Source of the DNA: a virus
DNA: 64,000 nt
Virus record (IMG/VR): IMGVR_UViG_3300017991_000077
Coordinates: 33,476 to 97,475 of that record
Reading direction: 5' to 3' (one strand)
This document shows positions 26,019 through 63,378 of this stretch, piece by piece (the first letter of the stretch is position 1; every line of letters starts with the position of its first letter). The notes below the pieces were generated by a model. That model searched no databases, had not been told where the DNA came from, and saw nothing but the letters and a program-made list of their open reading frames with translations. A program made the translations under genes and the position numbers.

Positions 26019-28236
26019 GAGTGCTATTGTGGATAGTATGGTTCGAGTATTCGAGACTAAGGTGCCTGAGTATCTTTACTCTGAGTATACACTCAACACC
26101 GTAGAGGGAGGTTTTAAGCTCTATTCGGTAGATTCAAATTCTGGGGTAGTTTCTTTTCCACGTTCGGCCCAACGATATTTTGATTGTGAAGATCGTACTT
26201 CTCAAGGAAGAAGTATTGATCGGGAATACGAGGCTAAGTTTAAGCCAAGAGAATATCAAGAAGAAGCTGTTGCGGCGACATGTCAGTACCTGTCTCGGCA
26301 TAGGGGAGGAGTTCTTATTGCAGGTTGTGGAAAAGGAAAGACCGTTATGGCCACTGAAAGTGCACTCAGACTAAACAAGTCGACATGTATTTTAGTGCAT
26401 AAGGAGTTTTTGGCAGACCAATGGGAAGCAGCTATAAAAATGCTTTCTGGAATTCATACTGTAGGTCGGTTGAAGCGGGATCAATGTGATACAGGTCAAG
26501 ATTTTGATTTCGTCATTGCGAGTACTCAGAGTCTTACTAATCCAAAGCGGGAGTATCCCAAAGAATTTTTTGATTCTTTTGGATTGTTAATCGCAGACGA
26601 ATGTCACAGATACGGGGCTGAAATTTGGCACCAGGTATTTCAGCAGTTCCCCGCTCGGTATCGACTCGGGTTAACAGCCACCGCGGAGAGGTATGATGGG
26701 CTGTGGGGACTCGTGCAAGAACATGTCGGATATACCGCGACTTGTATCGATGCAGATCCTATCGAGAATAAAGTATTCATGGTGAAACTGACTACAGGAA
26801 TTCCAGAATCGGCATGGAATCATAAGTGGTTGGACGATAATATGAAGAGGGCCAAGCTAGTATCTATTTTAGCAAACCACGATGGCAGGAATGAGGTGAT
26901 TGCTCGGAATATTCTCAAGGCTTTCGAGAGCAATCGAATAACTTTAGTGATTTCAGAAAGACGGGCGCAGCTTGAGGAGCTTAGTAAGAAGCTTCAGAGT
27001 AGAGGCGTAGATGAAAAGCATATTGGATTTTTTGTAGGGGGTCGCAAGAAGAAAGATTTAGACGAGGTACAGTTGAAGCCGCTTATCATGTGCTGTTTGG
27101 AAGAAGATGCTTTGTGTTTAACTCTAACTGGGTGGAAGCATTATTCTCAGTTGAGTATCGGGGAGTGGGTAGCATCCTATAGTATAGAGAGAGAGGTTAT
27201 TGAGTATGTCCCTCTAGTAGATATTAAGGTTTATGATTTTGATGGCTATCTCGCTGAAATAGATAGGAAAAGATTAAATGTTAGGATGACTTGGGGTCAT
27301 AAGAATGTAGTTTATAGAGGAGGTAAAGAATTTCTTGAAAAGGCGTGTTTTTTACAGACTGGAGACAAAGTTAGAGTGTTTGCTCCTGTTGATTATCCAG
27401 AACATGGGGAGAGTATAGGAGTTTCGCAGGCAGAGTTGGTGGGATGGTTTATCGCTGAAGGTACATGTACGCGGGATGATGGTGTGATTTTATACCAAAA
27501 CGAGGGGAAGACTGCTGAGCGGATAGACTATTTACTCGGAATAGCTGGTTGGGCGTATTCTCGAAGAGAGTATCGTCCAGGACAAATCAGTTGGCATTTC
27601 GGAGCAGCTCTTTCTAGAGCTACTTTTTTGAATTGGTCTCCAGATAAAGATTTAAATTCTTTTTTAATAGGGTTGCCTCAAAGGGAAGTAGACGCTTTAT
27701 TTGTTGGTTTGGTTGATGGTGATGGGAGTTACTACAAAAACACAGTTGTTTTTACGCAGAGAAAAGTTTCTACGGTCGATTGGTTTACTATTTTAGCTCT
27801 TCGGTGTGGCTATTCACCTTATGTAGGTAAGGATGAAAGAATAGGTAGAGTCTTCTTAACTAAGAAGAAATTTGTTGGTCTTACGGATAGAGAGTTTCAT
27901 GTAGCTCCAGTTAAGTATAGAGGGAAGGTATGGTGTCCGAAGACGAAGAATGACACTTGGATTGCTCGGAGTAGAGGTTCTATTTTTATTACTGGTAATA
28001 CCTATCAGATGGCCAAAGAAGGATTAGATATTGAGGCGTTGGATGCTTTGTTTATGGCTACCCCTCAATATGGAGTTACGCAGACCGTAGGTCGAATATT
28101 GAGAGAGCTTGAAGGTAAGGCTGTTCCCGTTACAGTTGATTTTGTTGATTCAGATGTTGAGCGGTTGAGAGGTCAGGCGTTTGGACGGGTAAAACAATAT
28201 CGCGCTTTAGGATGTGAAGTTGTAGGAGAGTTTTGA
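26008..28236 (+). CDS. Superfamily 2 (DExH) helicase containing an intein
   Basis: Q motif PREYQ; GCGKGKT; DECH; GLTAT; EGLDI; Q.VGRILR. Confidence 0.9.
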   Translation: MSFKSAIVDSMVRVFETKVPEYLYSEYTLNTVEGGFKLYSVDSNSGVVSFPRSAQRYFDCEDRTSQGRSIDREYEAKFKPREYQEEAVAATCQYLSRHRGGVLIAGCGKGKTVMATESALRLNKSTCILVHKEFLADQWEAAIKMLSGIHTVGRLKRDQCDTGQDFDFVIASTQSLTNPKREYPKEFFDSFGLLIADECHRYGAEIWHQVFQQFPARYRLGLTATAERYDGLWGLVQEHVGYTATCIDADPIENKVFMVKLTTGIPESAWNHKWLDDNMKRAKLVSILANHDGRNEVIARNILKAFESNRITLVISERRAQLEELSKKLQSRGVDEKHIGFFVGGRKKKDLDEVQLKPLIMCCLEEDALCLTLTGWKHYSQLSIGEWVASYSIEREVIEYVPLVDIKVYDFDGYLAEIDRKRLNVRMTWGHKNVVYRGGKEFLEKACFLQTGDKVRVFAPVDYPEHGESIGVSQAELVGWFIAEGTCTRDDGVILYQNEGKTAERIDYLLGIAGWAYSRREYRPGQISWHFGAALSRATFLNWSPDKDLNSFLIGLPQREVDALFVGLVDGDGSYYKNTVVFTQRKVSTVDWFTILALRCGYSPYVGKDERIGRVFLTKKKFVGLTDREFHVAPVKYRGKVWCPKTKNDTWIARSRGSIFITGNTYQMAKEGLDIEALDALFMATPQYGVTQTVGRILRELEGKAVPVTVDFVDSDVERLRGQAFGRVKQYRALGCEVVGEF
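27094..27999 (+). mobile_element. Intein (302 aa) with LAGLIDADG homing endonuclease
   Basis: Starts CLEEDALCLT, ends VWCPKT...IFITGN followed by Thr+1; LAGLIDADG-like LVGWFIAEG and FVGLVDGDG; removal restores helicase motif V (LIMC/TYQMAKEGLDI). Confidence 0.9.
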
Positions 28237-28824
28237 GTGATACGATGTAAAGACTGTGACTTCTGGTTGGGCAAATATTTTTTTGAGAGTGATTATTATA
28301 CGGGAGAAGAAAAAACAGGGCCAGTTCCTAATTGTAGCCATCCCAAATGGGTAGAGGCTTCGAAAGAGGAGGTTCCTCCTTCGGATGGAGTGCACTATTG
28401 GGATTTTGAAGATTACGGGGCGATGTTTGCAACGGGTCCGGAGTTCGGATGTATCCATGGGGAAGCTCCTGATACGCTTGATCAGATTTACATAGATGAA
28501 GAATTTTGTAAGAAGGTGACGATTAAAAGCGGAGGGGAAGACGATGAAGAACTTGTGGACTGGTTTGAAGATGAATCGATAGCCTTTAATTGCGGTGGGT
28601 ATTATGAGGCTCCAGTTCCTTTGTCAAAAGATCTCGGGAAGGAAGATGTATGTATTGTCTTCTATCCAAAAGAAGGAAAAATCATTGATGAAAGTGAGAT
28701 GCTAAGTAGGTTGCACAACGGACCTAACGATTGGGTTGCTTTTCGATCAGATGGAAAAGACCTCCGGCCAGTACATGTTGATCGAGACGCCTCGAACGAG
28801 GTTGAATATAGCAAAACTCTCTGA
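28237..28824 (+). CDS. Hypothetical protein (N-terminal Cys cluster)
   Basis: CxxC...C...'TGPEFGCIH' motif seen in small phage proteins. Confidence 0.55.
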   Translation: MIRCKDCDFWLGKYFFESDYYTGEEKTGPVPNCSHPKWVEASKEEVPPSDGVHYWDFEDYGAMFATGPEFGCIHGEAPDTLDQIYIDEEFCKKVTIKSGGEDDEELVDWFEDESIAFNCGGYYEAPVPLSKDLGKEDVCIVFYPKEGKIIDESEMLSRLHNGPNDWVAFRSDGKDLRPVHVDRDASNEVEYSKTL

Positions 28825-28956
28825 ATGCACTTTAGTAGAAGAGAATTTTTTCTTGGCTTTTGTCGATAAGGAAGGAAACAAAGTAGACCTTTTTATCCGA
28901 GAAACGAGGGAGGACGGAACAGTAATCCCAATAGTCATTAAGCATAAGGAGAAGAT

Positions 28957-29379
28957 ATGAAGGTTTCACATGTGCGTATCCCTAGAAAATCCGTCGATTT
29001 GAGACTTAATGGTAAGGATATATTAATCAGTCTAGACATCCCTTGGTTTACTTATCTTTGGAGACGATTAGAGCTAGAAAACTTGTTGGTTAATGGTGTT
29101 GAGGGTTTTAAAGAATTGGTTTTATTCGATGGAGATTTGTACTGGCCAGCCCTTACGCAGATTCGAAGTACGACGGATGGAATACATTTACGAGTATCGT
29201 GGGAGACTCTGACGAAAAAAGATTTGGTTGTTCTGTTTTGTGAGGAAGCAGCCGCTAATGCCGCATTACGGCATCGATTTGGGGGGGATGTAGTCGATGA
29301 GGTAGAAGATAAAAGGCATTCGATTTTTAAGCAGAGTCTTCAATCAATAGCCGCTGAACTGAGTGTAAGAAGGAGGTAA
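28957..29379 (+). CDS. Hypothetical protein
   Basis: AAGGAG RBS. Confidence 0.55.
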   Translation: MKVSHVRIPRKSVDLRLNGKDILISLDIPWFTYLWRRLELENLLVNGVEGFKELVLFDGDLYWPALTQIRSTTDGIHLRVSWETLTKKDLVVLFCEEAAANAALRHRFGGDVVDEVEDKRHSIFKQSLQSIAAELSVRRR

Positions 29380-45255: not shown

Positions 45256-45480
45256 ATGGCAAAGTGCAAGAGTTGTGGGGCATCTATTATCTGGTCTAAA
45301 ACAGTGAAGGGAAAAGCAGTTCCTTTAGATGTTGAGCCAACGAAACGGTATGTTTTGTGTTCAGACCCCTTTGCAGCTCCAGGAGAGGAATCACGGGTAG
45401 AACTTCGCACTTGTTATCGGTCTCACTTTGTTACATGTCCACATGCCGATAAGCACAGAAAGGGAAAGAAGGATGGTTGA
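45256..45480 (+). CDS. Small Zn-finger protein
   Basis: CKSCG.I.W....GK.VPLD...SHF.TCP.A. Confidence 0.65.
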   Translation: MAKCKSCGASIIWSKTVKGKAVPLDVEPTKRYVLCSDPFAAPGEESRVELRTCYRSHFVTCPHADKHRKGKKDG

Positions 45481-46624
45481 TAACCAAGAAGGAACATTTG
45501 AAAAACGGTGGGATAAGTCCTTTGAAAAAATGCAGGTTTTAAAAGCGGAATGGATGATCACTCGGAAGTGCAATCTCAAGTGTTCATATTGTAAAATACG
45601 GGATAGCCGCACTCTGAAGGCTCCAGAGCTTTCAACTGAAGCATTGGTCAAGATAGTTCAGTTGTTTAGTCGAAATTGGCCGGGAGCACCTATGGTGGTG
45701 TACGGAGGGGAGCCTACTGAGCGGGATGATTTACCGGAGTTGCTGAGGGCAGGCCGGTTATATCGAGTGAAGTTGCCTGTCATTTCTAATTCGATTCGGG
45801 TAGTTGAAGATTCGGGTTATGCTCGGTTGCTCGTAGAATCGGGATTGGAAAATTGGTCAGTCTCTCTTGATGGTCTTGCTTATATGAATTCAGCTCTTGA
45901 TATGTCGGGACGAAAGAAATCGTTGTACGGATTGATGGCGCTCAGATTGTTCAGGGATATTTATGGTCTTCGAGACTTGGTGGCGTGTGTCACAGTGAAT
46001 CGAAAAAATATTCGGTATTTGCCCGATATACTTCGAGCGCTAACCTCCGAAGGAATTCATAGTATCTTTACTCCGTTGCATATTGGCGGTCCCGGATATG
46101 AGTATGCTCAGGGCAATGTAGAGGATCTTCCTCTACAAGAGGATCTCGACGAGATTTCTCCTCTAATGTACGAGATGGTGAAATCGGGAAGGTTCTTGTG
46201 TTCTAACGATGCAGCCTGGTTCAACGTTTGGCCGAAACACTTCCGTAAGCAGGATTGGATGTGTAACGATAAAGGGCTTTTAACCATAGATGCAGACGGC
46301 AGCCTAAAATACTGCGTTGATATTCCTTTTAGAGAAGAAGACCGAATGAATGTATTCGAGCTTAATACGGAGACAGGCCAGAAGAAGTTTTTGGATATTA
46401 TCCAGAAAGGGCCTCCTTGTAAGGGGTGTCTGTGGAATCCTGCATACGAGTGTATCAAGAGAGCACGGGACCCACACATCGGTATTGAGAGCGGGAGAGA
46501 GCGGTCCAGGCATTATGTGGCAGAGGAAAGGCTTGAGTTGTTGCATGGAGGAGCTGGGAGATATTTTGAAGGGAATCCGGAATTGAAGCGTGTTCCTCTT
46601 GGAGGGAAGCATGAATCCGATTGA
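45473..46624 (+). CDS. Radical SAM enzyme with Twitch/SPASM-like Cys domain
   Basis: CNLKCSYC; GGEPT; SLDG; C...IDADG...C...CKGC. Confidence 0.88.
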   Translation: MVDNQEGTFEKRWDKSFEKMQVLKAEWMITRKCNLKCSYCKIRDSRTLKAPELSTEALVKIVQLFSRNWPGAPMVVYGGEPTERDDLPELLRAGRLYRVKLPVISNSIRVVEDSGYARLLVESGLENWSVSLDGLAYMNSALDMSGRKKSLYGLMALRLFRDIYGLRDLVACVTVNRKNIRYLPDILRALTSEGIHSIFTPLHIGGPGYEYAQGNVEDLPLQEDLDEISPLMYEMVKSGRFLCSNDAAWFNVWPKHFRKQDWMCNDKGLLTIDADGSLKYCVDIPFREEDRMNVFELNTETGQKKFLDIIQKGPPCKGCLWNPAYECIKRARDPHIGIESGRERSRHYVAEERLELLHGGAGRYFEGNPELKRVPLGGKHESD

Positions 46625-48328: not shown

Positions 48329-49101
48329 TGTATCCAGTTTTTGTGATCAATTTAGACCGATCAAAAGATCGTTGGGAAACGATGCTCAAGACTTTTCCTT
48401 TAGATAATCTCCAGCGAATTCGGGCAGTAGATGGAAGACAGTGGGAGCTGGGGGGAAAAACGGATGATACTGGAAGGGTTCTTTGGGATCCAGAGAAGGT
48501 AACAATGTTGAAGGATTTGGGTGTACTTGGAGACCATCCGATTTATAGCATAGGAGGTACGAACCCCCTCTGGCCAGGAGTTCCCTGTGACTTGGGTTGT
48601 ACGTTAAGTCACGCAAAGATATGGAGAAAAATTTATCAAGAGCAGATACCCTGGGCGGTCATTCTTGAGGATGACACTGAGCCTACGGAGTTTGTGGCTA
48701 ATCGGAGGTTATGGGACGTTTTAAGGTATATGATACCTATGGGGGCAGATGTAGTGCTTTTGTCTGGACATCAAGAGGGCACTAATAGTCGAGAACTCGA
48801 CCGCGATGGCCAGTTTATTGGGGGATTTGGGACTGAGGGATATGCTATCTCTTGGAGGGGTGCTGAAGTAGCGTTGCACGCAGAGTTCCCGATGTATGAG
48901 ACGTTAGACCGACAGTGGTTTAAGCGAGGTTTTTTGTCTTGCCTAATGAAAAATCAGATTCCTCTTCCGCCAGTTCCCTATAAGGTTCGAGCATATGGTC
49001 TTCGAGAACCGATTATTCGGATTTCTGCAGTAGGAGACACAACTACGTTTTCTCATACCGGCAATAAAGAGTGGCACCTACAGAAAGGAAAGGACCAATG
49101 A
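48325..49101 (+). CDS. Glycosyltransferase family 25-like
   Basis: 'FVINLDRSKDRW', 'AVDG', 'GC.LSH..IW', 'ILEDD', 'GYAIS..GA'. Confidence 0.85.
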   Translation: MMYPVFVINLDRSKDRWETMLKTFPLDNLQRIRAVDGRQWELGGKTDDTGRVLWDPEKVTMLKDLGVLGDHPIYSIGGTNPLWPGVPCDLGCTLSHAKIWRKIYQEQIPWAVILEDDTEPTEFVANRRLWDVLRYMIPMGADVVLLSGHQEGTNSRELDRDGQFIGGFGTEGYAISWRGAEVALHAEFPMYETLDRQWFKRGFLSCLMKNQIPLPPVPYKVRAYGLREPIIRISAVGDTTTFSHTGNKEWHLQKGKDQ

Positions 49102-50654
49102 GTAAGAACGAGACTTCGATTGTTCCGATAGAAGACCCCCTTTCTCTAAGTAAAGAGAAGCTCGAAGCTCATTTGAAACGATGGGATAGAGATCTTTCTG
49201 AGGAGAATCGATGTTATGGAATGAAGCTGCTTTTAGCAGGAGCTGAGCAGAAGAAAGTTCGGGATGGTTTGTATCGAGCCGGGATTCGACATATTCTCGT
49301 CTCGTATTACTACCTGAGAAAGTGGTTAAAGAATCGACCTGCCCAGGAGATTGCAGAAGACTTTGGTCGTTTTGATTTCGTGTTTCTGGATTCTGGAGGA
49401 TATACGTTGATGGTCCAGAACGAAAAAGAAGGCGTCCAGGTAGATATTAACGAGTATTCCAGCGAGTATTATACTGAGCTAAAACGTATTGGATCTATCT
49501 TTGCAGGGTGTGCTGAAGTGGACCTTCCGAATAAGTTGGGATGGGATTATTATGAGAGCATCAAACAAGAGATGGTGGATGAAGGGGTGCCTATAGTCCC
49601 TGTGATGCATGGAAAACCCTTAGAGTTCTATGGGGATCTTGGATGGTTTGATGATTATCCTTATATTGCAATCGGCTCTTTGGTACTTACAACCCCCAGT
49701 TATCGAGGATGGGTGAATCAAGTATTTGATGTGTGTAAGGAAAAAGGAATATTAGTTCATGGTTTCGGGGTCACCGATACCAAGACTATGCTCAAATCTC
49801 AGTATTATTCTTGTGACTCAACTACCTGGTTAAATGGGTCAAAGTTTGGGTCTACGATGGTTTTTGAGAATGGTCGAATTCGGCATTATGATCATCTTAA
49901 TAAGGCTGTGCGTCGAAGATTTAAAAAGCGTTTTGAGGATAATGGTATCATTTGGAGTGACATCGAGGCGGATAAGGGTTTCGAAGTAGACATGATGAAT
50001 GCGCTTGCTTGGAAACAGCTCGGTGACTACGTGAGATATTCTGCTATTAGAAGCTATTGGCTCACTCCAGAGGAGAAGGATAGAGCGCTTACGTTAAAGT
50101 CTAAGGCGTTCAATGCTGAAGGGGTTATTGATCGAAAAGTTTCGATAGAGCGAGCGGAAGCCAGAAGATTACTGGCAGTGGAAGATCCGGATTCAGATGA
50201 CAGATCTCATGAGATACTCCATTGCGATACTTGCCACGTGACTGGACGATGCCCTCGGTGGAAAGCAGGGGAAGCTTGTGGATATGATATAAATGTTCGT
50301 TTAGAGTCTCAAGGAGACCTACAGAAAATGCTTCAGATATTACTGGAGGCTCAGTATGGAAGGGTTATGACCGGAGTACTTTTTGAAAAGCTTGAAGGAG
50401 GAGTGCTCGATAAGAATCTGTCTGCGGAGCTTCAGCGGACTATTGGTATGGTAGCAGATATTAAGAGTATCTTTGCACCCAGAGTTGAAGAGGAAATAGA
50501 GATTCGGGCTAAGGGAGGTAAAGGGGCTTTGTCCTCAATTTTGGCAGGCGTCTTTGCTCCTACAGGTGTTGGAAAATCAGGATCAGGAAATTCGCAGGTT
50601 CAGAGGGCAGCTAATAAGATTATTGATGTGGAGCCAGACGTATCAGAAGATTGA
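49098..50654 (+). CDS. DpdA-like (TGT-fold) deazaguanine-DNA transglycosylase with a C-terminal Cys4 extension
   Basis: 'LVSYYY', 'FLDSGGYT', 'VPVMH', 'IAIG', 'VHGFG.T', 'SCDSTTW' TGT/DpdA-type motifs; lies in the que cluster. Confidence 0.72.
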   Translation: MSKNETSIVPIEDPLSLSKEKLEAHLKRWDRDLSEENRCYGMKLLLAGAEQKKVRDGLYRAGIRHILVSYYYLRKWLKNRPAQEIAEDFGRFDFVFLDSGGYTLMVQNEKEGVQVDINEYSSEYYTELKRIGSIFAGCAEVDLPNKLGWDYYESIKQEMVDEGVPIVPVMHGKPLEFYGDLGWFDDYPYIAIGSLVLTTPSYRGWVNQVFDVCKEKGILVHGFGVTDTKTMLKSQYYSCDSTTWLNGSKFGSTMVFENGRIRHYDHLNKAVRRRFKKRFEDNGIIWSDIEADKGFEVDMMNALAWKQLGDYVRYSAIRSYWLTPEEKDRALTLKSKAFNAEGVIDRKVSIERAEARRLLAVEDPDSDDRSHEILHCDTCHVTGRCPRWKAGEACGYDINVRLESQGDLQKMLQILLEAQYGRVMTGVLFEKLEGGVLDKNLSAELQRTIGMVADIKSIFAPRVEEEIEIRAKGGKGALSSILAGVFAPTGVGKSGSGNSQVQRAANKIIDVEPDVSED

Positions 50655-59021: not shown

Positions 59022-59690
59022 ATGGCAAAAGAAACGAAGAAAAAAGAAACGAAGAAAAAAGAGAAGAAAAAAGCAACGCTGACTGTCAAGATGACTTTCA
59101 CTGAAGGTCTGTTGGGGACTGCTAGTGCGAACCCAGAATTGCATGAGGAGTATATTGCATCTAAGAGCGCAGACAAGGCCAAGATGAAAGAGGAGCTGGC
59201 CAGTCTGCCAAGCGAAGAACTGATGGATAAGTCGATGACGGTCTTTAGCCGCGACCCCGCAGGAGATCCTTTCTTATTTGATTATCAGATTAAGGGCTAC
59301 CTTAAAGAGACAATCGGTGCGATGGTGGATTTTGATCCAATAGTCCTTCAAGAAAAGCCTTCAGTCAAACTGTCGAAGTATACCTACAAGCGGTACATCG
59401 ATAAGTATATCTTCGTATTCCCACGAAAGATTCCTTTGAGGATGCCCGAAGGCTCTACGGTAACGACGTGCACAAGGCCCCTCAGAGCTGAGACGATGAA
59501 AGGGGAACGGGTTGCTTTGGCGACCAGCGAAGAAGTACCGAAGGGCACGGAGTTGGAGTGTACTATCTACTGGAGGCACCCAAAGTTTGAGGAGTGTATT
59601 AGAGACGCGTTGGAATACGGAGAATGGTCCGGCATAGGCCAGTGGCGGAATTCAGGAAAAGGGCGGTTTGTTTGGGAGGAATTGTCCTAA
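59022..59690 (+). CDS. Stand-alone Cas7/Csm3-like RAMP-fold protein
   Basis: RAMP hallmarks in order: beta1 'LTVKMTFTEGLLG'; 'RD..GDPFL...QIKGYLKE' (cf. P.ipgss.KG.lr); 'EEVPKGTELE'; terminal Gly-rich loop 'GIGQWRNSGKGRF'. Confidence 0.65.
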   Translation: MAKETKKKETKKKEKKKATLTVKMTFTEGLLGTASANPELHEEYIASKSADKAKMKEELASLPSEELMDKSMTVFSRDPAGDPFLFDYQIKGYLKETIGAMVDFDPIVLQEKPSVKLSKYTYKRYIDKYIFVFPRKIPLRMPEGSTVTTCTRPLRAETMKGERVALATSEEVPKGTELECTIYWRHPKFEECIRDALEYGEWSGIGQWRNSGKGRFVWEELS

Positions 59691-59785
59691 GACGCTAAGG
59701 CATGGTTGTGCCAGGCGAGGTAAGAGCATAGCCTGGATTGGCATTTCTCAGTAATAGTATGGCGATGAGTAGAAAGCAAAGGAAT
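59691..59785 (+). repeat. Short pentamer-periodic array directly after the RAMP gene (candidate guide RNA)
   Basis: GGC-AT GGT-TG TGC-CA GGC-GA GGT-AA...; delimiter-like sites at 59694, 59720, 59751 and 59776. Confidence 0.6.
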
Positions 59786-59789
59786 CGTT

Positions 59790-61823
59790 ATGAAATTTAA
59801 GGAATTTAACTCGTTGTTGCAGAAGCATGTTCAGGCGATGGCAAAAGACCAACAGTATTTGTTTATGGTGGATCTCGATAAGGACACTGTTTGGGATACA
59901 TACTTGAACAGTTATCCAGAGGGAACAAACCCGATTTTTAGAAAACGTCGCGAGCATGATTGCAGTTGCTGTCGGCATTTTATTCGGGATTTAGGAAGAG
60001 TCGTTGCCATTAAAAACAGGGAAGTGATTACTATCTGGGATTTCGATACGAAGAGTGATGAGTATCAGCCCGTAGTGAATGCTCTTTCAGACCTCATAAA
60101 GTCGAGACCTATTGTGGATGTCTTCATCCCTACTACGAAGTCAATCGGGACAAAGAATAATATAGAGCTTTTGGACAGCGGGGGTGTCCTTGAGTGGAAT
60201 CATTTTTATACCCCCGTACCGAAGTCTTTGGTGACATATGGATTAAGCCAGGCCAGTACTGTTCAAGGACAAATGAGGGATGTTCGTAACGTATTCAAAA
60301 GGTCGCTTAAAGAAATCAGTATCGAGGCGACGAAGACCGTTTTAGAGCTGATTGCTCAGAAGTCTCTGTACAAGGGAGAAGAGTGGCAGTCTGTTTTGAA
60401 GCAGTTTAAAAAGCTTCAGGAGGAGTATTCGAGTATAGACAGTCGGAGTATTTCAGAACTTTATTGTTGGGAAACTTCAGTTCGAGTAGGGCCGATTATT
60501 GGCAAGATTCGAAATCATTCTATCGGAGTTTTGTTAACGGACCTTTCGGAAGGAACAGACCTTGATGCGGCCGTTAGTCGTTATGAGGCCATTGTAGCGC
60601 CTACAAATTACAAACGGCCAAAGGCTATCTTCACCAAGATGATGATTCAGTCAGCTCAAAAGACTGTCAAAGAGTTGGGTTTTGAGGCTTCTTTGGGAAG
60701 ACGGTTCGCAGTACTCGAAGACATTACAGTGCCGAATACCCTTTTCGCCAATCGCAGCGCGACTAAGATTATGACGGGCGATGTCTTTGAGGAGATGGCA
60801 GCGGAGATGCCAGATGGACCGAAGAATCTATCCAAAGTAGAAGAGATAGATATTCGGACTTTCGTCGAACAAGTGTTGCCAAAGGCTACAAGCATCTCAG
60901 CCCTTTTAGAAAACAAGCACGAGAAAAATATGGTTTCTTTGATTGCTCCAAAAGACATCGGCAGCAAGACGATGTTCAAATGGAATAATAATTTTTCTTG
61001 GGCTTATTCGGGCAATATCACGGATAGCATGAAAGAGCGCGTGAAGTCTGCCGGAGGTAAGACCGACGGAGTTCTTAGGTTCTCTATTCAGTGGAATGAC
61101 GACGCCGATACGCCAGACGATTTGGATGCGCATTGCTATGAGCCAAGAGGGAATCTTATCTATTTTAGTAATATGCGGAATCAGAATACGGGTGGACATT
61201 TGGATGTCGACATAACACACCCACATAAAGAAGTTGCTGTGGAAAATATTACGTGGCCGAGTCTACGTAGAATGGAACAAGGAAGGTATGTTTTCTTGGT
61301 ACATAACTATGCTTCACGAGGAGGTAGGGCCGGTTTTTCTGCGGAAATTGAGTTCGATGGCAATATTTATTCGTTCGAGTATCCAAGGCCTTTGAGGCAA
61401 GGTCAGAAGGTGAACGTAGCTGAAGTGCATTTTGATGGGAAAGCATTTACGCTCAAAGGGCTTTTGAAGTCTCAGCATTCTTCTAAGGAGATTTGGGGCC
61501 TTTCTTCAAACAAGTTTCATCCCGTAACGGTGGCGTCGTTCTCGCCCAATTATTGGGATAAACAAGACGAGATTGGTCACCGACACCTCTTTTTTTTCCT
61601 CGATAAATGCGAGAATCCAGAGAGCCCAAACGGCTTTTTTAATGAGTTCTTGAATCAAAATTTGATGGAACATAAGAGAGTATTCGAGGCTTTAGGGGCC
61701 AAGATGCGGGTAGACGATTCAAGCAATCAGTTATCTGGACTTGGTTTTTCAATGACGAAGAGAGCACAACTAGTAGTGAAAGTAACAGGTACTTTTGAGC
61801 GAATGCTCAAGGTAAATTTTTAA
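59790..61823 (+). CDS. Conserved large phage protein (677 aa) with a YfaP/TerD-like C-terminal domain
   Basis: 'R.EHDCSCCRHFI' N-terminus; 'DLDAHC.EP...LDVD...VENITW' domain. Confidence 0.65.
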   Translation: MKFKEFNSLLQKHVQAMAKDQQYLFMVDLDKDTVWDTYLNSYPEGTNPIFRKRREHDCSCCRHFIRDLGRVVAIKNREVITIWDFDTKSDEYQPVVNALSDLIKSRPIVDVFIPTTKSIGTKNNIELLDSGGVLEWNHFYTPVPKSLVTYGLSQASTVQGQMRDVRNVFKRSLKEISIEATKTVLELIAQKSLYKGEEWQSVLKQFKKLQEEYSSIDSRSISELYCWETSVRVGPIIGKIRNHSIGVLLTDLSEGTDLDAAVSRYEAIVAPTNYKRPKAIFTKMMIQSAQKTVKELGFEASLGRRFAVLEDITVPNTLFANRSATKIMTGDVFEEMAAEMPDGPKNLSKVEEIDIRTFVEQVLPKATSISALLENKHEKNMVSLIAPKDIGSKTMFKWNNNFSWAYSGNITDSMKERVKSAGGKTDGVLRFSIQWNDDADTPDDLDAHCYEPRGNLIYFSNMRNQNTGGHLDVDITHPHKEVAVENITWPSLRRMEQGRYVFLVHNYASRGGRAGFSAEIEFDGNIYSFEYPRPLRQGQKVNVAEVHFDGKAFTLKGLLKSQHSSKEIWGLSSNKFHPVTVASFSPNYWDKQDEIGHRHLFFFLDKCENPESPNGFFNEFLNQNLMEHKRVFEALGAKMRVDDSSNQLSGLGFSMTKRAQLVVKVTGTFERMLKVNF

Positions 61824-61833
61824 GGAGAAAACA

Positions 61834-62202
61834 ATGTTCGAAAAAGCATCGAGAAAGAAATTGCGGTTTAATTATCACGGGTCAATATCAGTAGAAGATC
61901 TGTGGGATCTCTCCGTCGAAGACCTGGATGATATGTATGGACTGCTGAGAACTGAGCAGAAGGAAACAAGCACCGAAAGTCTTTTGAAGTCGAAGAGGCT
62001 TGCGGGAACCAATCTTGATCTACGTATCAATCTTGTGAAACATGTCGTCGAGACCAAATTGCAGGAAGCCGATGAGAGAGAAAATCGAGCTATTGTGAAA
62101 CTTCAGAAAGAGAAGATCGCAGAACTTATTCAGGCAAAGAAGGACGATGGTTTGAAGGAAATGACCGTTGAAGAACTTCAAGAGAAGATGGACGAACTCT
62201 AG
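61834..62202 (+). CDS. Conserved phage protein, partner of the upstream gene
   Basis: 'MFEKASR.KLRF...G..SVEDLWDLS' motif; AAGGAG RBS. Confidence 0.65.
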   Translation: MFEKASRKKLRFNYHGSISVEDLWDLSVEDLDDMYGLLRTEQKETSTESLLKSKRLAGTNLDLRINLVKHVVETKLQEADERENRAIVKLQKEKIAELIQAKKDDGLKEMTVEELQEKMDEL

Positions 62203-62950
62203 CAGGGCAAAGCAAAGGCATGGGGCCGTGGTGCTGGTCATTGCAAAGGCATAGTCAAGGCGAAGGGGAGTGAAGCTACGTTATGCTCCGGTAAGGTTTT
62301 GAGAAGTTGGGTTTTGCGTTGAAATGGTTGTGTGTCGCGTTGAAATGGTTGTGTGTCGCGGAGATTAGTTCGGCTTTAGCAAAGCATAGATGAGATAAGC
62401 ATCAGTGAAGCGTAGGCAAAGCAAGGTACTATGACGTAAGGCCCAGGCGTAGAGTGGAGCTGTTTGGATTGGAACTGCAAAGGCACTGAAGAGTTGAGCA
62501 CCAGAACAGTACGGAATTGACTCGTGTCGTAAGCAAAGGCAAGGTAGAATCTGGTTTTGAGCGGCGATGGAGAAGCGGTGTGCTGACATGCGAAGGCAAT
62601 GAAATTCCTGGACTTGAGGCGTGTTGAAATGCAAAGGCATGGAAATGAACCGGAAAGCGTAGGCAGCGTTTGGAACGGCATCACTAAGGTACTGTGCTGC
62701 GAAGCATGATTCAGCAAAGGCAAAGAGATGTGAGGATACGAAATGCGATGGAATTGCGTAGACTCGAGACGCTAAGACTGTGCAGAGGCATAGAAAGGGA
62801 CGGTTAAGTGAAGGAAAGGTCGCGCTAGGTGCGGCAATGCAAAGCAAAGGCAGGACATAGTTCAGTAAGACACTGCAGAGGCGAAGTAGGTCCAAGAAGT
62901 GCTGCGGGATCGCGGGGTGAGGTGTAGACCGGTGTAGAAGTGCAAGGGCA
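62201..62950 (+). repeat. 750-bp non-coding array of nGnnn pentamers with GCAAAGGCA-type delimiters (candidate guide-RNA array)
   Basis: G recurs at every fifth base; exact GCAAAGGCA at 62212, 62243, 62477, 62533, 62631, 62714 and 62844, plus variants; spacings are mostly 26/31/36/41; the track shows no + strand ORF. Confidence 0.8.
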
Positions 62951-62967
62951 GAAAGGAGAGTATAAGA

Positions 62968-63378
62968 ATGAATATTCCGATAGTTAGATTAGAAATTGAG
63001 GGAATGAAACACTCTGTTCAAACGGCTTTGACTGAGTATATTATGCAGATGGATGAGGATATTCATGTAGCGATTGAAAAGGTAATTACTCCTGATAATA
63101 TTTCCTTGGTCATTTCTGATTCGGTAGCACGCACATTAAAAGATGTGTTGCAGACCGAAATAGATAGCCTGTTTAGGTATGGCGATGGACGTAGGGTCCT
63201 AAGAAAAACGGTAAGAAGTTTGATATGGGAACATCTTTCTAAAGATAGGGTGACTACAGATGACACGGGAACAGATACTTCAGAATCGGTTAGAGGATCA
63301 GAATCAGGAGATAAAGAATCTGAATCTGAAGATACAGATGATGGCGAAGAAGATGGAACATCTGAAGGTGGAGAATAA
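62968..63378 (+). CDS. Hypothetical protein with acidic tail
   Basis: AAAGGAG RBS at the end of the array. Confidence 0.55.
   Translation: MNIPIVRLEIEGMKHSVQTALTEYIMQMDEDIHVAIEKVITPDNISLVISDSVARTLKDVLQTEIDSLFRYGDGRRVLRKTVRSLIWEHLSKDRVTTDDTGTDTSESVRGSESGDKESESEDTDDGEEDGTSEGGE

What the first reader, a model, noticed from the sequence alone, without database searches (positions are those of the whole stretch)
59022..62950. Solo Cas7-like RAMP protein plus a pentamer-coded non-CRISPR RNA array: candidate RNA-guided system
Seen: ORF 59022-59690 carries RAMP/Csm3-type motifs in the right order and ends in a Gly-rich loop (GIGQWRNSGKGRF). No cas operon or CRISPR array is nearby. Directly after its stop, and again over 62201-62950, the non-coding DNA parses into 5-nt units with a nearly fixed G, e.g. 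agcaa aggcaa agaga tgtga ggata cgaaa tgcga and aggcgt agagt ggagc tgttt ggatt ggaac tgcaa. Known: Cas7-group RAMPs polymerise along guide RNA with a fixed nucleotide footprint per subunit. Inference: each pentamer is one protomer footprint. The conserved xG(Y) part would be held by the protein and the variable bases would read a target discontinuously, giving roughly 25 different short guides against competing phages/elements or the host. From memory this resembles recently reported phage RAMP + GGY/NN-repeat ('VIPR'-type) systems, which needs checking. Here the code is more degenerate (only G fixed) and has a distinct delimiter, so it may be a new subtype.
Basis: partly seen in the sequence, partly recalled or inferred. 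Interest (0 to 1): 0.95.

Follow-up and report, generated by a model that had tools for sequence, protein, structure and literature searches.

The report
Phage VIPR guide-RNA system, degenerate repeats
An uncultured 97-kb phage carries a lone Cas7-like protein gene next to about 28 short five-base-repeat guide units, which fits the CRISPR-related VIPR systems first published in 2026, so it is a real but already described kind of system.

Summary
ORF 59022-59690 is predicted to fold as a Cas7-type RAMP: the top matches are Csm3, Cmr4 and type VII Cas7 (Z up to 11.6, Foldseek E 4.5e-8). A guanine recurs every 5 nt in the non-coding DNA at 59691-59789 and 62203-62951 (z = 9.1 against shuffles). 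These are the only two places in the 64-kb window that light up on that strand.

The link between gene and array holds across the family. 157 of 160 homolog loci carry a same-strand period-5 G array next to the gene. The same scan picks out the known VIPR locus of phage SUSP1 as a positive control.

Arrays are chains of units 5n+1 nt long (mostly 26, 31 or 36 nt). Units are built of G-H-N-N-N pentamers and end in GCAAN+G.

This matches the published VIPR systems, including their YNNNG/NNNNG repeats and 'staggered' arrays. I therefore file it as a new member of a known kind, not a new subtype. This scan has already reported VIPR loci many times on other DNA, including this protein family.

The two genes between the arrays are an unrelated mobile cassette, not accessory genes. 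RNA expression, processing, protein binding and targets are all untested. My target searches gave only chance-level hits.

The parts
59022..59690 (+). vipr-like gene: a 222-aa single-RRM RAMP with a thumb hairpin, a helical insertion and a C-terminal G-loop (G-I-G-Q-W-R-N-S-G-K-G-R-F)
   Evidence: AF2 model built with a 52-sequence alignment: pLDDT 82, pTM 0.76. Foldseek top hits are type VII Cas7 and Csm3, E 4.5e-8. In VIA-align the 47 best entries are all CRISPR RAMPs, Z up to 11.6. The family profile hits PDB type VII Cas7 at E 5.7e-5. The family has 4375 homologs.
59027..59078 (+). 15-nt tandem repeat inside the gene, encoding a Lys/Glu-rich N-terminal extension of about 19 aa that most homologs lack
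   Evidence: Tandem Repeats Finder: period 15, 3.7 copies. Most homologs align only from query residue ~19-20.
59691..59789 (+). Proximal mini-array: about 3 pentamer tracts starting 4 nt after the vipr stop, bounded by GCTAAGG (59694) and GCAAAGG (59776)
   Evidence: Lag-5 G z = 4.1. Flagged by the window-wide scan. Motif positions, parse.
59790..61823 (+). 677-aa gene (phrog_1735), first gene of a mobile two-gene cassette that splits the array. Not part of the system.
   Evidence: PHROG E 5.5e-265. Present in 539 phage records, 56% identical in Bacillus Herelleviridae. No homolog in 80 vipr loci.
61834..62202 (+). 122-aa gene (phrog_2018), second gene of the cassette. Not part of the system.
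   Evidence: PHROG E 4.3e-31. The same adjacent pair occurs in Bacillus phage TsarBomba, 35% identity, E 8e-22. No homolog in 80 vipr loci.
62203..62951 (+). Distal array: about 25 abutting tracts of G-first pentamers, each 5n+1 nt long (16-41 nt, one of 71 nt). About 14 boundaries carry GCAAAG|GCA or a close variant. These are the putative vrRNA guide units.
   Evidence: Lag-5 G z = 9.1. Window scan, motif list, parse. RNA no more structured than shuffles, z +1.03. No Rfam family.
62306..62360 (+). 21-bp direct duplication inside the array (21 = 4 x 5 + 1, so one short unit was duplicated in register)
   Evidence: Tandem Repeats Finder: period 21, 2.6 copies. Parsed as two 21/26-nt tracts sharing the same first three pentamers.

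Best explanation
This is a VIPR system (Viral Interference Programmable Repeat) of the branch with degenerate YNNNG/NNNNG repeats and a 'staggered' array.

Proposed mechanism:
1. The + strand transcript that covers vipr and the arrays yields short guide RNAs (vrRNAs) of 5-8 pentamers.
2. Vipr protomers polymerise along each guide, one per pentamer.
3. The G-loop Trp/Arg and the thumb Arg clamp the fixed G and the base after it.
4. The variable bases are left exposed to pair discontinuously with double-stranded DNA of a competing phage or other mobile element. The bound filament blocks transcription.

Shown here: the RAMP fold; the period-5 array; the family-wide physical linkage of gene and array; the 5n+1 unit grammar; and rapid turnover of array interiors next to a nearly unchanged gene.

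Inferred by analogy with phage SUSP1: transcription and processing of the array, protein binding, DNA rather than RNA as target, silencing as outcome, and which of the variable bases pair.

A mobile two-gene cassette unrelated to VIPR separates the first ~3 units from the remaining ~25.
For: Fold:
- Cas7/Csm3-type RAMP.
- The profile hits type VII Cas7 at the G-loop, E 5.7e-5.

Link to a proven Vipr:
- Profile-profile comparison with the SUSP1 Vipr family gives E 3.7e-4 over the last strand, helix and G-loop.
- The full-length alignment is collinear.
- Shared motifs are G-h-G-[DQ]-W-R...G-R-F and [YT]-R-P-[IL].

Array:
- z = 9.1 at lag 5.
- These are the only such regions on that strand in the window.
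- The same statistic picks out only the known VIPR locus in the 90-kb SUSP1 genome.

Linkage:
- 79 of 80 IMG/VR loci and 78 of 80 genome loci have an adjoining same-strand array.

Grammar:
- Spacing of GCAANGG motifs is 5n+1 in 293 of 454 cases, mostly 26, 31, 36 or 41 nt.
- 988 parsed units peak at 26/31/36 nt.
- The pentamer is G(0.93)-[C 0.56, A 0.24, T 0.14]-N-N-N, and the last pentamer is GCAAN plus one extra G.

Turnover:
- Between phages with at least 90% identical Vipr, aligned arrays are 78% identical while the gene is 93% identical.
- Mismatch rates are 5% at G and 17-28% at the other positions.
- L014 and L019 have identical flanks, a densely substituted interior and a 31-nt (one-unit) indel.

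Context:
- The contig is a phage with its own replisome.
- No cas genes and no CRISPR array.

Literature:
- VIPR, its YNNNG/NNNNG variants and staggered arrays.
- Vipr-vrRNA contacts.
Against: - No RNA data: no RNA run holds the stretch, so expression, processing and binding are untested.
- Similarity to a proven Vipr is weak. It is about as strong as the similarity to CRISPR Cas7. The family profile finds nothing in the SUSP1 genome and hhalign probability is only 36%.
- I could not place the protein in the published seven-type tree, because the figures and supplementary tables are not held.
- No target was found. No decoding rule gave more matches than shuffled guides in 1-1.5 Mb of related phage DNA or in the phage's own genome.
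- IMG/VR scans gave chance-level hits.
- Units of 5-8 pentamers would specify only 10-16 bases under the NN rule, fewer than the 9-16 repeats of type II.
- No conserved accessory (vap) gene was found.
- The low mismatch rate at G partly restates the periodicity, because in-phase arrays align at G even when they are not homologous.
Confidence: 0.88

Rival explanations
1. It is a VIPR relative with a different decoding rule. The pocket for the first G has been lost, so a third base of each pentamer is free and is read as well. That would give three bases per pentamer, possibly reading contiguous DNA triplets with no skipped base.
For: - The two SUSP1 residues that bind G1 (H17, D177) are replaced by invariant T33 and Q207 in this family.
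- The residues that hold G2 and Y3 (W178, R179, R138-P139) are kept as W208, R209 and R152-P153.
- The former G1 position shows no G preference and has the highest mismatch rate of all five positions, 28%.
Against: - A freed position would also evolve fastest if it were simply unread.
- The gapless three-base rule gave no exact hit in 1 Mb of related phage DNA.
- In IMG/VR, one guide gave 0 hits and another gave 1 hit with an 18-mer. The flank of that hit does not continue the match.
- The H17 alignment comes from a low-confidence hhalign.
Confidence: 0.08
2. The RAMP and array form a ribonucleoprotein that acts on RNA rather than DNA. It would bind or cleave transcripts as type III or type VII Cas7 filaments do, or the protein would be mainly a Cas6-like processing enzyme for the array.
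For: The closest solved folds are RNA-targeting Cas7 proteins: Csm3, Cmr4, type VII Cas7 and gRAMP. Abutting units with a conserved GCAAAG|G junction need some processing activity, and none is known.
Against: - The period is 5, not the 6 nt of Cas7-crRNA filaments.
- The only tested systems with 5-nt repeats bind double-stranded DNA.
- The catalytic residues of Csm3-type RNases were not examined, so this rival is not excluded.
Confidence: 0.03
3. The periodic tract is not an RNA gene. It would be a DNA-level element (protein-binding iterons or bent DNA) or the coding sequence of the 176-aa antisense ORF 62365-62895.
For: An antisense ORF is open across the array, and similar antisense ORFs cluster across relatives. 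Elsewhere in this genome a real 10/11-mer tandem repeat also gives a lag-5 signal.
Against: - There is no period-3 signal.
- The antisense frames stay open because of strand composition.
- The tract is not a tandem repeat of a fixed word: only G is fixed.
- It sits strictly on the same strand as a RAMP gene in 157 of 160 loci.
- Its units turn over as modules of 5n+1 nt.
Confidence: 0.01

Closest known systems
VIPR systems with non-canonical repeats (YNNNG, NNNNG) and 'staggered' vrRNA arrays (bioRxiv 10.64898/2026.04.26.720920, methods and fig. S17/S18 legends)
   Same: - A lone small RAMP in a phage, with no cas genes.
- An adjoining same-strand array of pentanucleotide repeats in which only one G (plus a preference for a non-G, mostly pyrimidine, after it) is kept.
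- Units abut with a 1-nt register offset, so the end of one marks the start of the next.
   Different: I could not confirm that this protein family is one of the paper's seven types, because the tree, logos and tables are not held. In the window the base after G is less pyrimidine-biased than the family average (C 0.28, T 0.28, A 0.31). The paper says staggered arrays were not among the architectures confirmed by small-RNA sequencing.
Type II VIPR of Escherichia phage SUSP1 (KT454805.2: vipr 28474-29061, vap1 28031-28471, four vrRNAs)
   Same: - Protein of about 20-25 kDa with the same order of elements: first strand, helical insertion, RRM, thumb with an R-P motif, and a G-loop G-h-G-x-W-R...G-R-F.
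- 5-nt repeat arrays flank the gene on its own strand.
- My period-5 scan detects both loci in the same way.
   Different: - SUSP1 has strict GGY/NN repeats, 9-16 per guide, each guide about 100 nt with a structured pseudoknot tail, plus a vap1 gene.
- Here only one G is fixed and units have 5-8 pentamers (26-41 nt).
- The only conserved piece here is GCAAAG|G, with no structured tail and no conserved vap.
- The G1-binding residues H17 and D177 are T33 and Q207 here.
- Sequence similarity is marginal (E 3.7e-4).
CRISPR Cas7-family RAMPs: Csm3/Cmr4 (type III) and type VII Cas7 (PDB 8yhd, 6s6b, 9g9a, 6ae2)
   Same: Same fold with thumb and G-loop (Z 10.9-11.6, Foldseek E about 1e-7). The family profile matches type VII Cas7 at the G-loop (E 5.7e-5). 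Cas7 proteins polymerise on guide RNA with a fixed footprint.
   Different: There is no cas operon, no CRISPR repeat-spacer array and no adaptation genes. The RNA period is 5 nt rather than 6. Guide information is spread over the variable bases of each repeat instead of sitting in a contiguous spacer.
Non-canonical VIPR-like arrays found by entropy periodicity (bioRxiv 10.64898/2026.10.21.760802: GAC/NN, CAC/NN, WGT/NN, TGH/NN)
   Same: Period-5 arrays beside a Vipr-like fold, with a fixed part degenerate at one or more positions. TGH/NN is close to the N-G-H/NN pattern seen here.
   Different: Those clusters are described as having about 10 repeats per array unit. Here units are 5-8 pentamers in long staggered chains, and the position before G is fully degenerate.

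Membership tests
VIPR (Vipr protein + vrRNA) | Small single-RRM RAMP with G-loop and thumb, lacking the second RRM of many CRISPR RAMPs | tested here: met
   AF2 model has pLDDT 82 and shows a beta-alpha-beta-beta-alpha-beta core, a long hairpin at 148-172 and the G-loop at 204-215. The 47 best VIA-align entries are all RAMPs, Z up to 11.6. Foldseek E 4.5e-8.
VIPR (Vipr protein + vrRNA) | Sequence homology to an experimentally characterised Vipr (SUSP1 / X1U2U4 clade) | tested here: inconclusive
   hhalign of the two family profiles gives E 3.7e-4, probability 36%, 48 columns at the G-loop. Against the single SUSP1 sequence the alignment is collinear over the full length but E is 0.018. The A1 profile finds nothing in the SUSP1 genome. 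G-loop and thumb motifs are shared.
VIPR (Vipr protein + vrRNA) | Intergenic arrays of tandem pentanucleotide repeats, with a conserved G-containing part and variable bases, flanking the gene | tested here: met
   Lag-5 G z = 9.1. These are the only such regions on that strand in the window. 157 of 160 homolog loci have one next to the gene on its strand.
VIPR (Vipr protein + vrRNA) | Canonical GGY/NN (YNNGG) repeat | tested here: not met
   Only one G is fixed and G is depleted after it. The pattern fits the published alternative consensus YNNNG/NNNNG. This fails the type II repeat, not the class.
VIPR (Vipr protein + vrRNA) | Viral or proviral, non-CRISPR context (no cas genes, no CRISPR array) | tested here: met
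   The 97-kb contig has a phage replisome and PHROG hits. No PADLOC or NCBIfam cas hits. No repeat-spacer array.
VIPR (Vipr protein + vrRNA) | Accessory vap gene beside vipr (typical, not universal) | tested here: not met
   None of the window's neighbouring proteins recurs in 80 homolog loci. The commonest family neighbours are a divergent CI-like repressor and SSB, which are ordinary phage genes. The cassette 59790-62202 occurs in phages that lack this Vipr.
VIPR (Vipr protein + vrRNA) | vrRNAs are expressed, processed and co-purify with Vipr | not testable with these tools
   No RNA run holds the stretch. This needs small-RNA sequencing and pull-down.
VIPR (Vipr protein + vrRNA) | Targets dsDNA through the variable bases with a 1-nt skip | tested here: inconclusive
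   No rule beat shuffled guides in local databases. IMG/VR hits were at chance level and scattered. The guides are too short for a blind database search.
VIPR type II (SUSP1 clade) | Guides of 9-16 repeats followed by an invariant structured 3' tail (pseudoknot) | tested here: not met
   Units have 5-8 pentamers and end in GCAAN+G. The array RNA folds no better than shuffles, z +1.03. No Rfam match.
CRISPR-Cas class 1 Cas7 (Csm3/Cmr4/type VII Cas7) | Encoded in a cas operon next to a CRISPR repeat-spacer array, with a 6-nt footprint on crRNA | tested here: not met
   The fold is shared, but there are no cas genes or CRISPR array. The only curated cas-model match is far below its cut-off: Csm4 at E 0.066, 12.5 bits against a cut-off of 55. 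The RNA period is 5.

The most novel reading that the evidence does not exclude
In this very large, mostly gut-phage branch, the Vipr pocket for the first guanine appears to have been lost (H17 to T, D177 to Q). The freed base is the fastest-evolving position of the pentamer. The branch may therefore read three bases per pentamer, possibly contiguous DNA triplets with no skipped base, using very short guides of 5-8 protomers chained with a +1 offset. That would be a second decoding rule for this class of RNA-guided DNA binders. The processing step at GCAAAG|G is also unknown.
Probability: 0.1. Interest if true: 0.6.

Novelty: new member of a known kind. Interest (0 to 1): 0.3.

Why it matters
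VIPR is a newly described class of RNA-guided DNA binders, proposed to predate CRISPR. Only type II (strict GGY/NN repeats, long guides, structured tail) has been studied at the bench.

This locus belongs to a much larger branch: 4375 proteins in the search, mostly from gut Clostridia phages and prophages. In this branch a single G is kept, and guides are short and chained in a 5n+1 grammar. By the paper's own account, that architecture was not among those confirmed by small-RNA sequencing.

The locus itself adds little that is new in kind. It does offer a clean test case:
- about 28 guides;
- an array split by a mobile cassette;
- an invariant Q-W-R G-loop that suggests why the first G is dispensable.

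It could be used to ask how degenerate repeats are recognised, how staggered arrays are processed, and which bases are read.

Tried and rejected
- Single-sequence AF2 model was useless (pLDDT 34) and was replaced by the alignment-based model.
- Pfam and PHROGs give nothing significant for the RAMP.
- The A1 profile search of the SUSP1 genome found nothing.
- The supplementary tables of the VIPR paper are not held, so I could not assign one of the seven types.
I used the search for related loci instead.
- No RNA holder is listed for the stretch. Laying the one DNA run, a sediment metagenome, gave only low-depth identical fragments and a diverged homolog of the 677-aa gene, with nothing over the arrays.
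- Rfam found no family, including no hammerhead.
- Target decoding in 1.0 Mb of related loci: exact matches of whole guides under 24 rules (positions x skip 0-3) gave no excess over shuffled pentamer order.
- Target decoding in 1.5 Mb, using 7-word matches under 16 rules, gave no excess. The exception was skip 3, which matches leftover array copies with the same 5-nt period. An earlier attempt timed out.
- The window's 22 guides against its own genome matched no better than shuffles.
- IMG/VR scans gave 0, 1 and 39 hits, consistent with chance and scattered over unrelated genes and frames.
- A third period-5 signal, at genome 2541-2900 on the minus strand, proved to be plain 10/11-mer tandem repeats, not a guide array.
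- The two genes between the arrays were considered as accessory (vap) genes and rejected.
- The 176-aa antisense ORF was considered and rejected: there is no period-3 signal.

Full report
**What is there**

The window is the right-hand 64 kb of a single 97,475-bp contig. The contig encodes a DnaB-type helicase, a family A DNA polymerase, a UvsX-like recombinase and other phage proteins. All large genes lie on the + strand.

ORF 59022-59690 has a ribosome site and encodes 222 aa ending in G-I-G-Q-W-R-N-S-G-K-G-R-F-V-W-E-E-L-S. Four bases after its stop, a 99-nt non-coding stretch begins. Two genes follow (677 aa and 122 aa). Directly after the stop of the second gene comes a 749-nt non-coding stretch that runs to 17 nt before the next gene.

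**Checking the observation**

Against 300 dinucleotide-preserving shuffles, G autocorrelation in 62203-62967 gives these values:
- z = 9.1 at lag 5
- z = 5.1 at lag 10
- z = 4.0 at lag 15
- negative values in between, and no period-3 signal

The 99-nt stretch gives z = 4.1 at lag 5.

A sliding lag-5/10 statistic over all 64 kb exceeds mean + 3.5 SD for G only at 59581-59820 and 62181-63000. As a positive control, the same statistic on the 90.7-kb genome of Escherichia phage SUSP1 lights up only the two intergenic regions around ALH47069/ALH47068. That is the published VIPR locus, with the residues the structure paper names (H17, D177-W178-R179).

At 96 in-phase positions in the window only G is fixed.

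**The protein**

- Pfam, PHROGs, PADLOC and NCBIfam do not name it.
- It has 4375 relatives at E <= 1e-3, nearly all about 200 aa and unannotated.
- With 52 of them as alignment, AlphaFold2 gives pLDDT 82 and pTM 0.76. The model shows a ferredoxin-like core, a helical insertion after the first strand, a long beta-hairpin (148-172) and the C-terminal glycine loop.
- Foldseek against the PDB returns type VII Cas7 and type III Csm3 first (E 4.5e-8 to 1e-5, probability 1.00).
- An all-against-all structural search returns CRISPR RAMPs in its first 47 entries: Cmr4/Cmr-beta Z 11.6, Csm3 Z 11.5 and 11.4, type VII Cas7 Z 10.9.
- The family profile also hits type VII Cas7 by sequence, E 5.7e-5, at the last strand, helix and G-loop.

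The RAMP call is therefore confirmed.

**Is it a Vipr?**

VIPR is in print. It is described as a lone, phage-borne RAMP plus vrRNAs made of pentanucleotide repeats. One protomer binds each repeat, GGY is clamped, NN pairs with dsDNA with one base skipped, and the outcome is transcriptional silencing of competing elements.

The window's family and the SUSP1 family (529 relatives, among them a marine-sediment-metagenome UniRef protein, P0162, that may be the paper's seed X1U2U4; the accession was not shown) are only marginally similar by sequence:
- Profile-profile comparison gives E 3.7e-4, probability 36%, over 48 columns.
- The alignment is collinear over the full length at E 0.018.
- The A1 profile finds nothing in the SUSP1 genome.

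The shared pieces are informative. The G-loop is G-h-G-Q-W-R-N-S-G-K-G-R-F here and G-h-G-D-[WY]-R-P-R-F-G-R-F in the SUSP1 family. The thumb is C-T-R-P-L-R here and R-[YT]-R-P-I-F there.

In the SUSP1 structure, W178 and R138 hold the second G, R179 holds the pyrimidine, and H17 and D177 bind the first G. In this family:
- the first three are kept as invariant W208, R152-P153 and R209;
- the two G1 contacts are replaced by invariant T33 and Q207.

That fits an array in which the second G and a non-G after it are kept while the first G is lost. This is an inference from alignments, one of them weak, not a structural result.

**Linkage across the family**

I fetched 80 loci from IMG/VR and 80 from prokaryote genome assemblies. 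The latter are mostly MAG contigs of gut Clostridia, but also include Dehalococcoidia, Saccharibacteria, Bacteroidota and Coriobacteriia.

The period-5 G statistic finds an array touching the gene, on the gene's strand, in 79 of 80 and 78 of 80 loci. Most arrays lie downstream, some upstream or on both sides.

**Grammar**

- In family arrays the motif GCAANGG recurs at distances of 31 (89 times), 26 (66), 36 (59) and 41 (32) nt. 293 of 454 spacings are 5n+1, and most of the rest are 5n+2, meaning two units.
- An HMM parse that allows one extra G between tracts gives 988 internal units with lengths peaking at 26, 31 and 36 nt.
- Inner pentamers are G(0.93)-[C 0.56, A 0.24, T 0.14, G 0.05]-N-N-N.
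- The last pentamer is G-C(0.94)-A-A-N followed by the extra G.
- In the window the same parse gives about 25 tracts in 62202-62951 and about 3 in 59691-59789. About 14 boundaries carry GCAAAG|GCA or a near variant.
- The 21-bp duplication at 62306-62360 keeps the register.

My parse was made independently and agrees.

In the register of the papers, the repeat is Y/H-N-N-N-G. The first VIPR paper states that, besides YNNGG, it found 'NNNGG, YNNNG, and NNNNG repeats'. It also describes 'staggered arrays with overlapping vrRNAs' whose units derive 'from 1 nt overlapping positions'. A later preprint lists TGH/NN and similar motifs beside Vipr-like folds. The degenerate code and the delimiter are therefore already described in outline.

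**Evolutionary behaviour**

Among 197 pairs of loci with at least 90% identical Vipr, the gene is on average 93% identical in DNA and the aligned array 78%. In the 139 well-aligned pairs, mismatch rates by position are:

| Position | Mismatch rate |
|---|---|
| Fixed G | 5% |
| Extra G | 4% |
| Four other positions | 17%, 22%, 23%, 28% |

One caveat applies: arrays that are in phase align at G even where they are not homologous, and the pairs are not independent.

A concrete case is L014 against L019. The genes are 98% identical and the array flanks are identical. The interior is densely substituted with the G columns kept, and there is one 31-nt indel, exactly one unit. This is how a set of exchangeable guides would behave.

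**Other properties**

- The array RNA is no more structured than shuffles (z +1.03) and matches no Rfam family. So there is no pseudoknot tail and no hammerhead.
- There is no consensus promoter or terminator around it. It is probably co-transcribed with the flanking + strand genes.
- In several relatives the array ends in a terminator-like hairpin on the same strand (by eye).

**The two genes in between**

- The 677-aa protein (phrog_1735) occurs in 539 phage records and is 56% identical in Bacillus Herelleviridae phages.
- In phage TsarBomba it is followed by a homolog of the 122-aa protein (35% identity, E 8e-22).
- Only four phage records hold this Vipr family.
- Neither protein recurs in 80 vipr loci.

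They form a mobile pair that sits between units of the array, not accessory genes. This agrees with scan note e1-6068434. No conserved accessory gene emerged. The commonest neighbours in relatives are a divergent CI-like repressor (HTH + S24 peptidase; 85 of 161 loci) and SSB.

**Targets**

I could not find any.
- Whole-guide exact matches under 24 rules in 1.0 Mb of related loci gave no excess over shuffled pentamer order.
- 7-word matches under 16 rules in 1.5 Mb gave no excess, apart from the trivial skip-3 case.
- The window's guides match its own genome no better than shuffles. The paper likewise found no self-targeting.
- Four IMG/VR scans gave 0, 1 and 39 hits, in line with chance and scattered over unrelated sequences.

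With 10-16 coding bases per unit, a blind database search has little power. This is a null result, not evidence against targeting.

**Verdict**

However, the system belongs to a class published in 2026, including its degenerate repeat and staggered layout. This scan has already reported VIPR loci many times, including this protein family.

I rate it a new member of a known kind, interest 0.3. The most novel reading still open is a three-base code in this branch. It rests on the lost G1 pocket and on the fast-evolving fifth base, and I give it about 10%.

Noticed in passing
window 59790-62202: A mobile two-gene pair of unknown function: 677 aa (phrog_1735) plus 122 aa (phrog_2018). The 677-aa protein is in 539 phage records across very different hosts (Salmonella, Klebsiella, Bacillus, Caulobacter and others) and is 56% identical to Bacillus Herelleviridae copies. 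The pair is also adjacent in phage TsarBomba. Such high conservation across unrelated phages is unexplained.
   Followed up: partly
window 59027-59078: A 15-nt tandem repeat (3.7 copies) inside the start of the vipr gene encodes a Lys/Glu-rich N-terminal extension of about 19 aa. Most homologs lack it. Its effect on nucleic-acid binding is unknown.
   Followed up: no
G000:C1:2620-2800, minus strand (outside the window, about 30.7 kb before its start): Iteron-like tandem repeats: an 11-mer (GGGTATAGACA) x5, then a 10-mer (GGTTAGAGAA) x4, then degenerate copies, next to the first gene of the contig. They gave a false period-5 signal and are not a guide array.
   Followed up: partly
window 45428-46624 and 49071-50654: The same phage carries a radical SAM gene and a queuine tRNA-ribosyltransferase (DpdA-like) gene. 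Together with scan note e1-6068435, this suggests 7-deazaguanine modification of its DNA. Whether such modification affects recognition by VIPR filaments, its own or a rival's, is an open question that I did not test.
   Followed up: no
L126:1178-2212, L054:1758-2693 and 83 further homolog loci: In about half of the family loci, vipr plus array sits 0.4-1.5 kb from a divergently oriented CI-like repressor (HTH + peptidase S24). That places it at the lysis-lysogeny switch of temperate gut phages. The window's phage has no such neighbour.
   Followed up: partly
L014:6590-7000 versus L019:6590-7000: Two phages with 98% identical vipr genes and identical array flanks differ densely inside the array. 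One also has a 31-nt indel, exactly one unit. This is a clear example of guide turnover by whole units.
   Followed up: partly
L061, L111, L135: Three of 160 homolog loci show no period-5 array next to the gene. L111 is from a bin labelled Promethearchaeota. They could be orphan vipr genes or have arrays too degenerate for the statistic.
   Followed up: no
window 62365-62895, minus strand: A 176-aa antisense ORF runs through the array, and similar antisense ORFs cluster across relatives. They are shadows of the array's strand composition and could mislead gene callers.
   Followed up: partly
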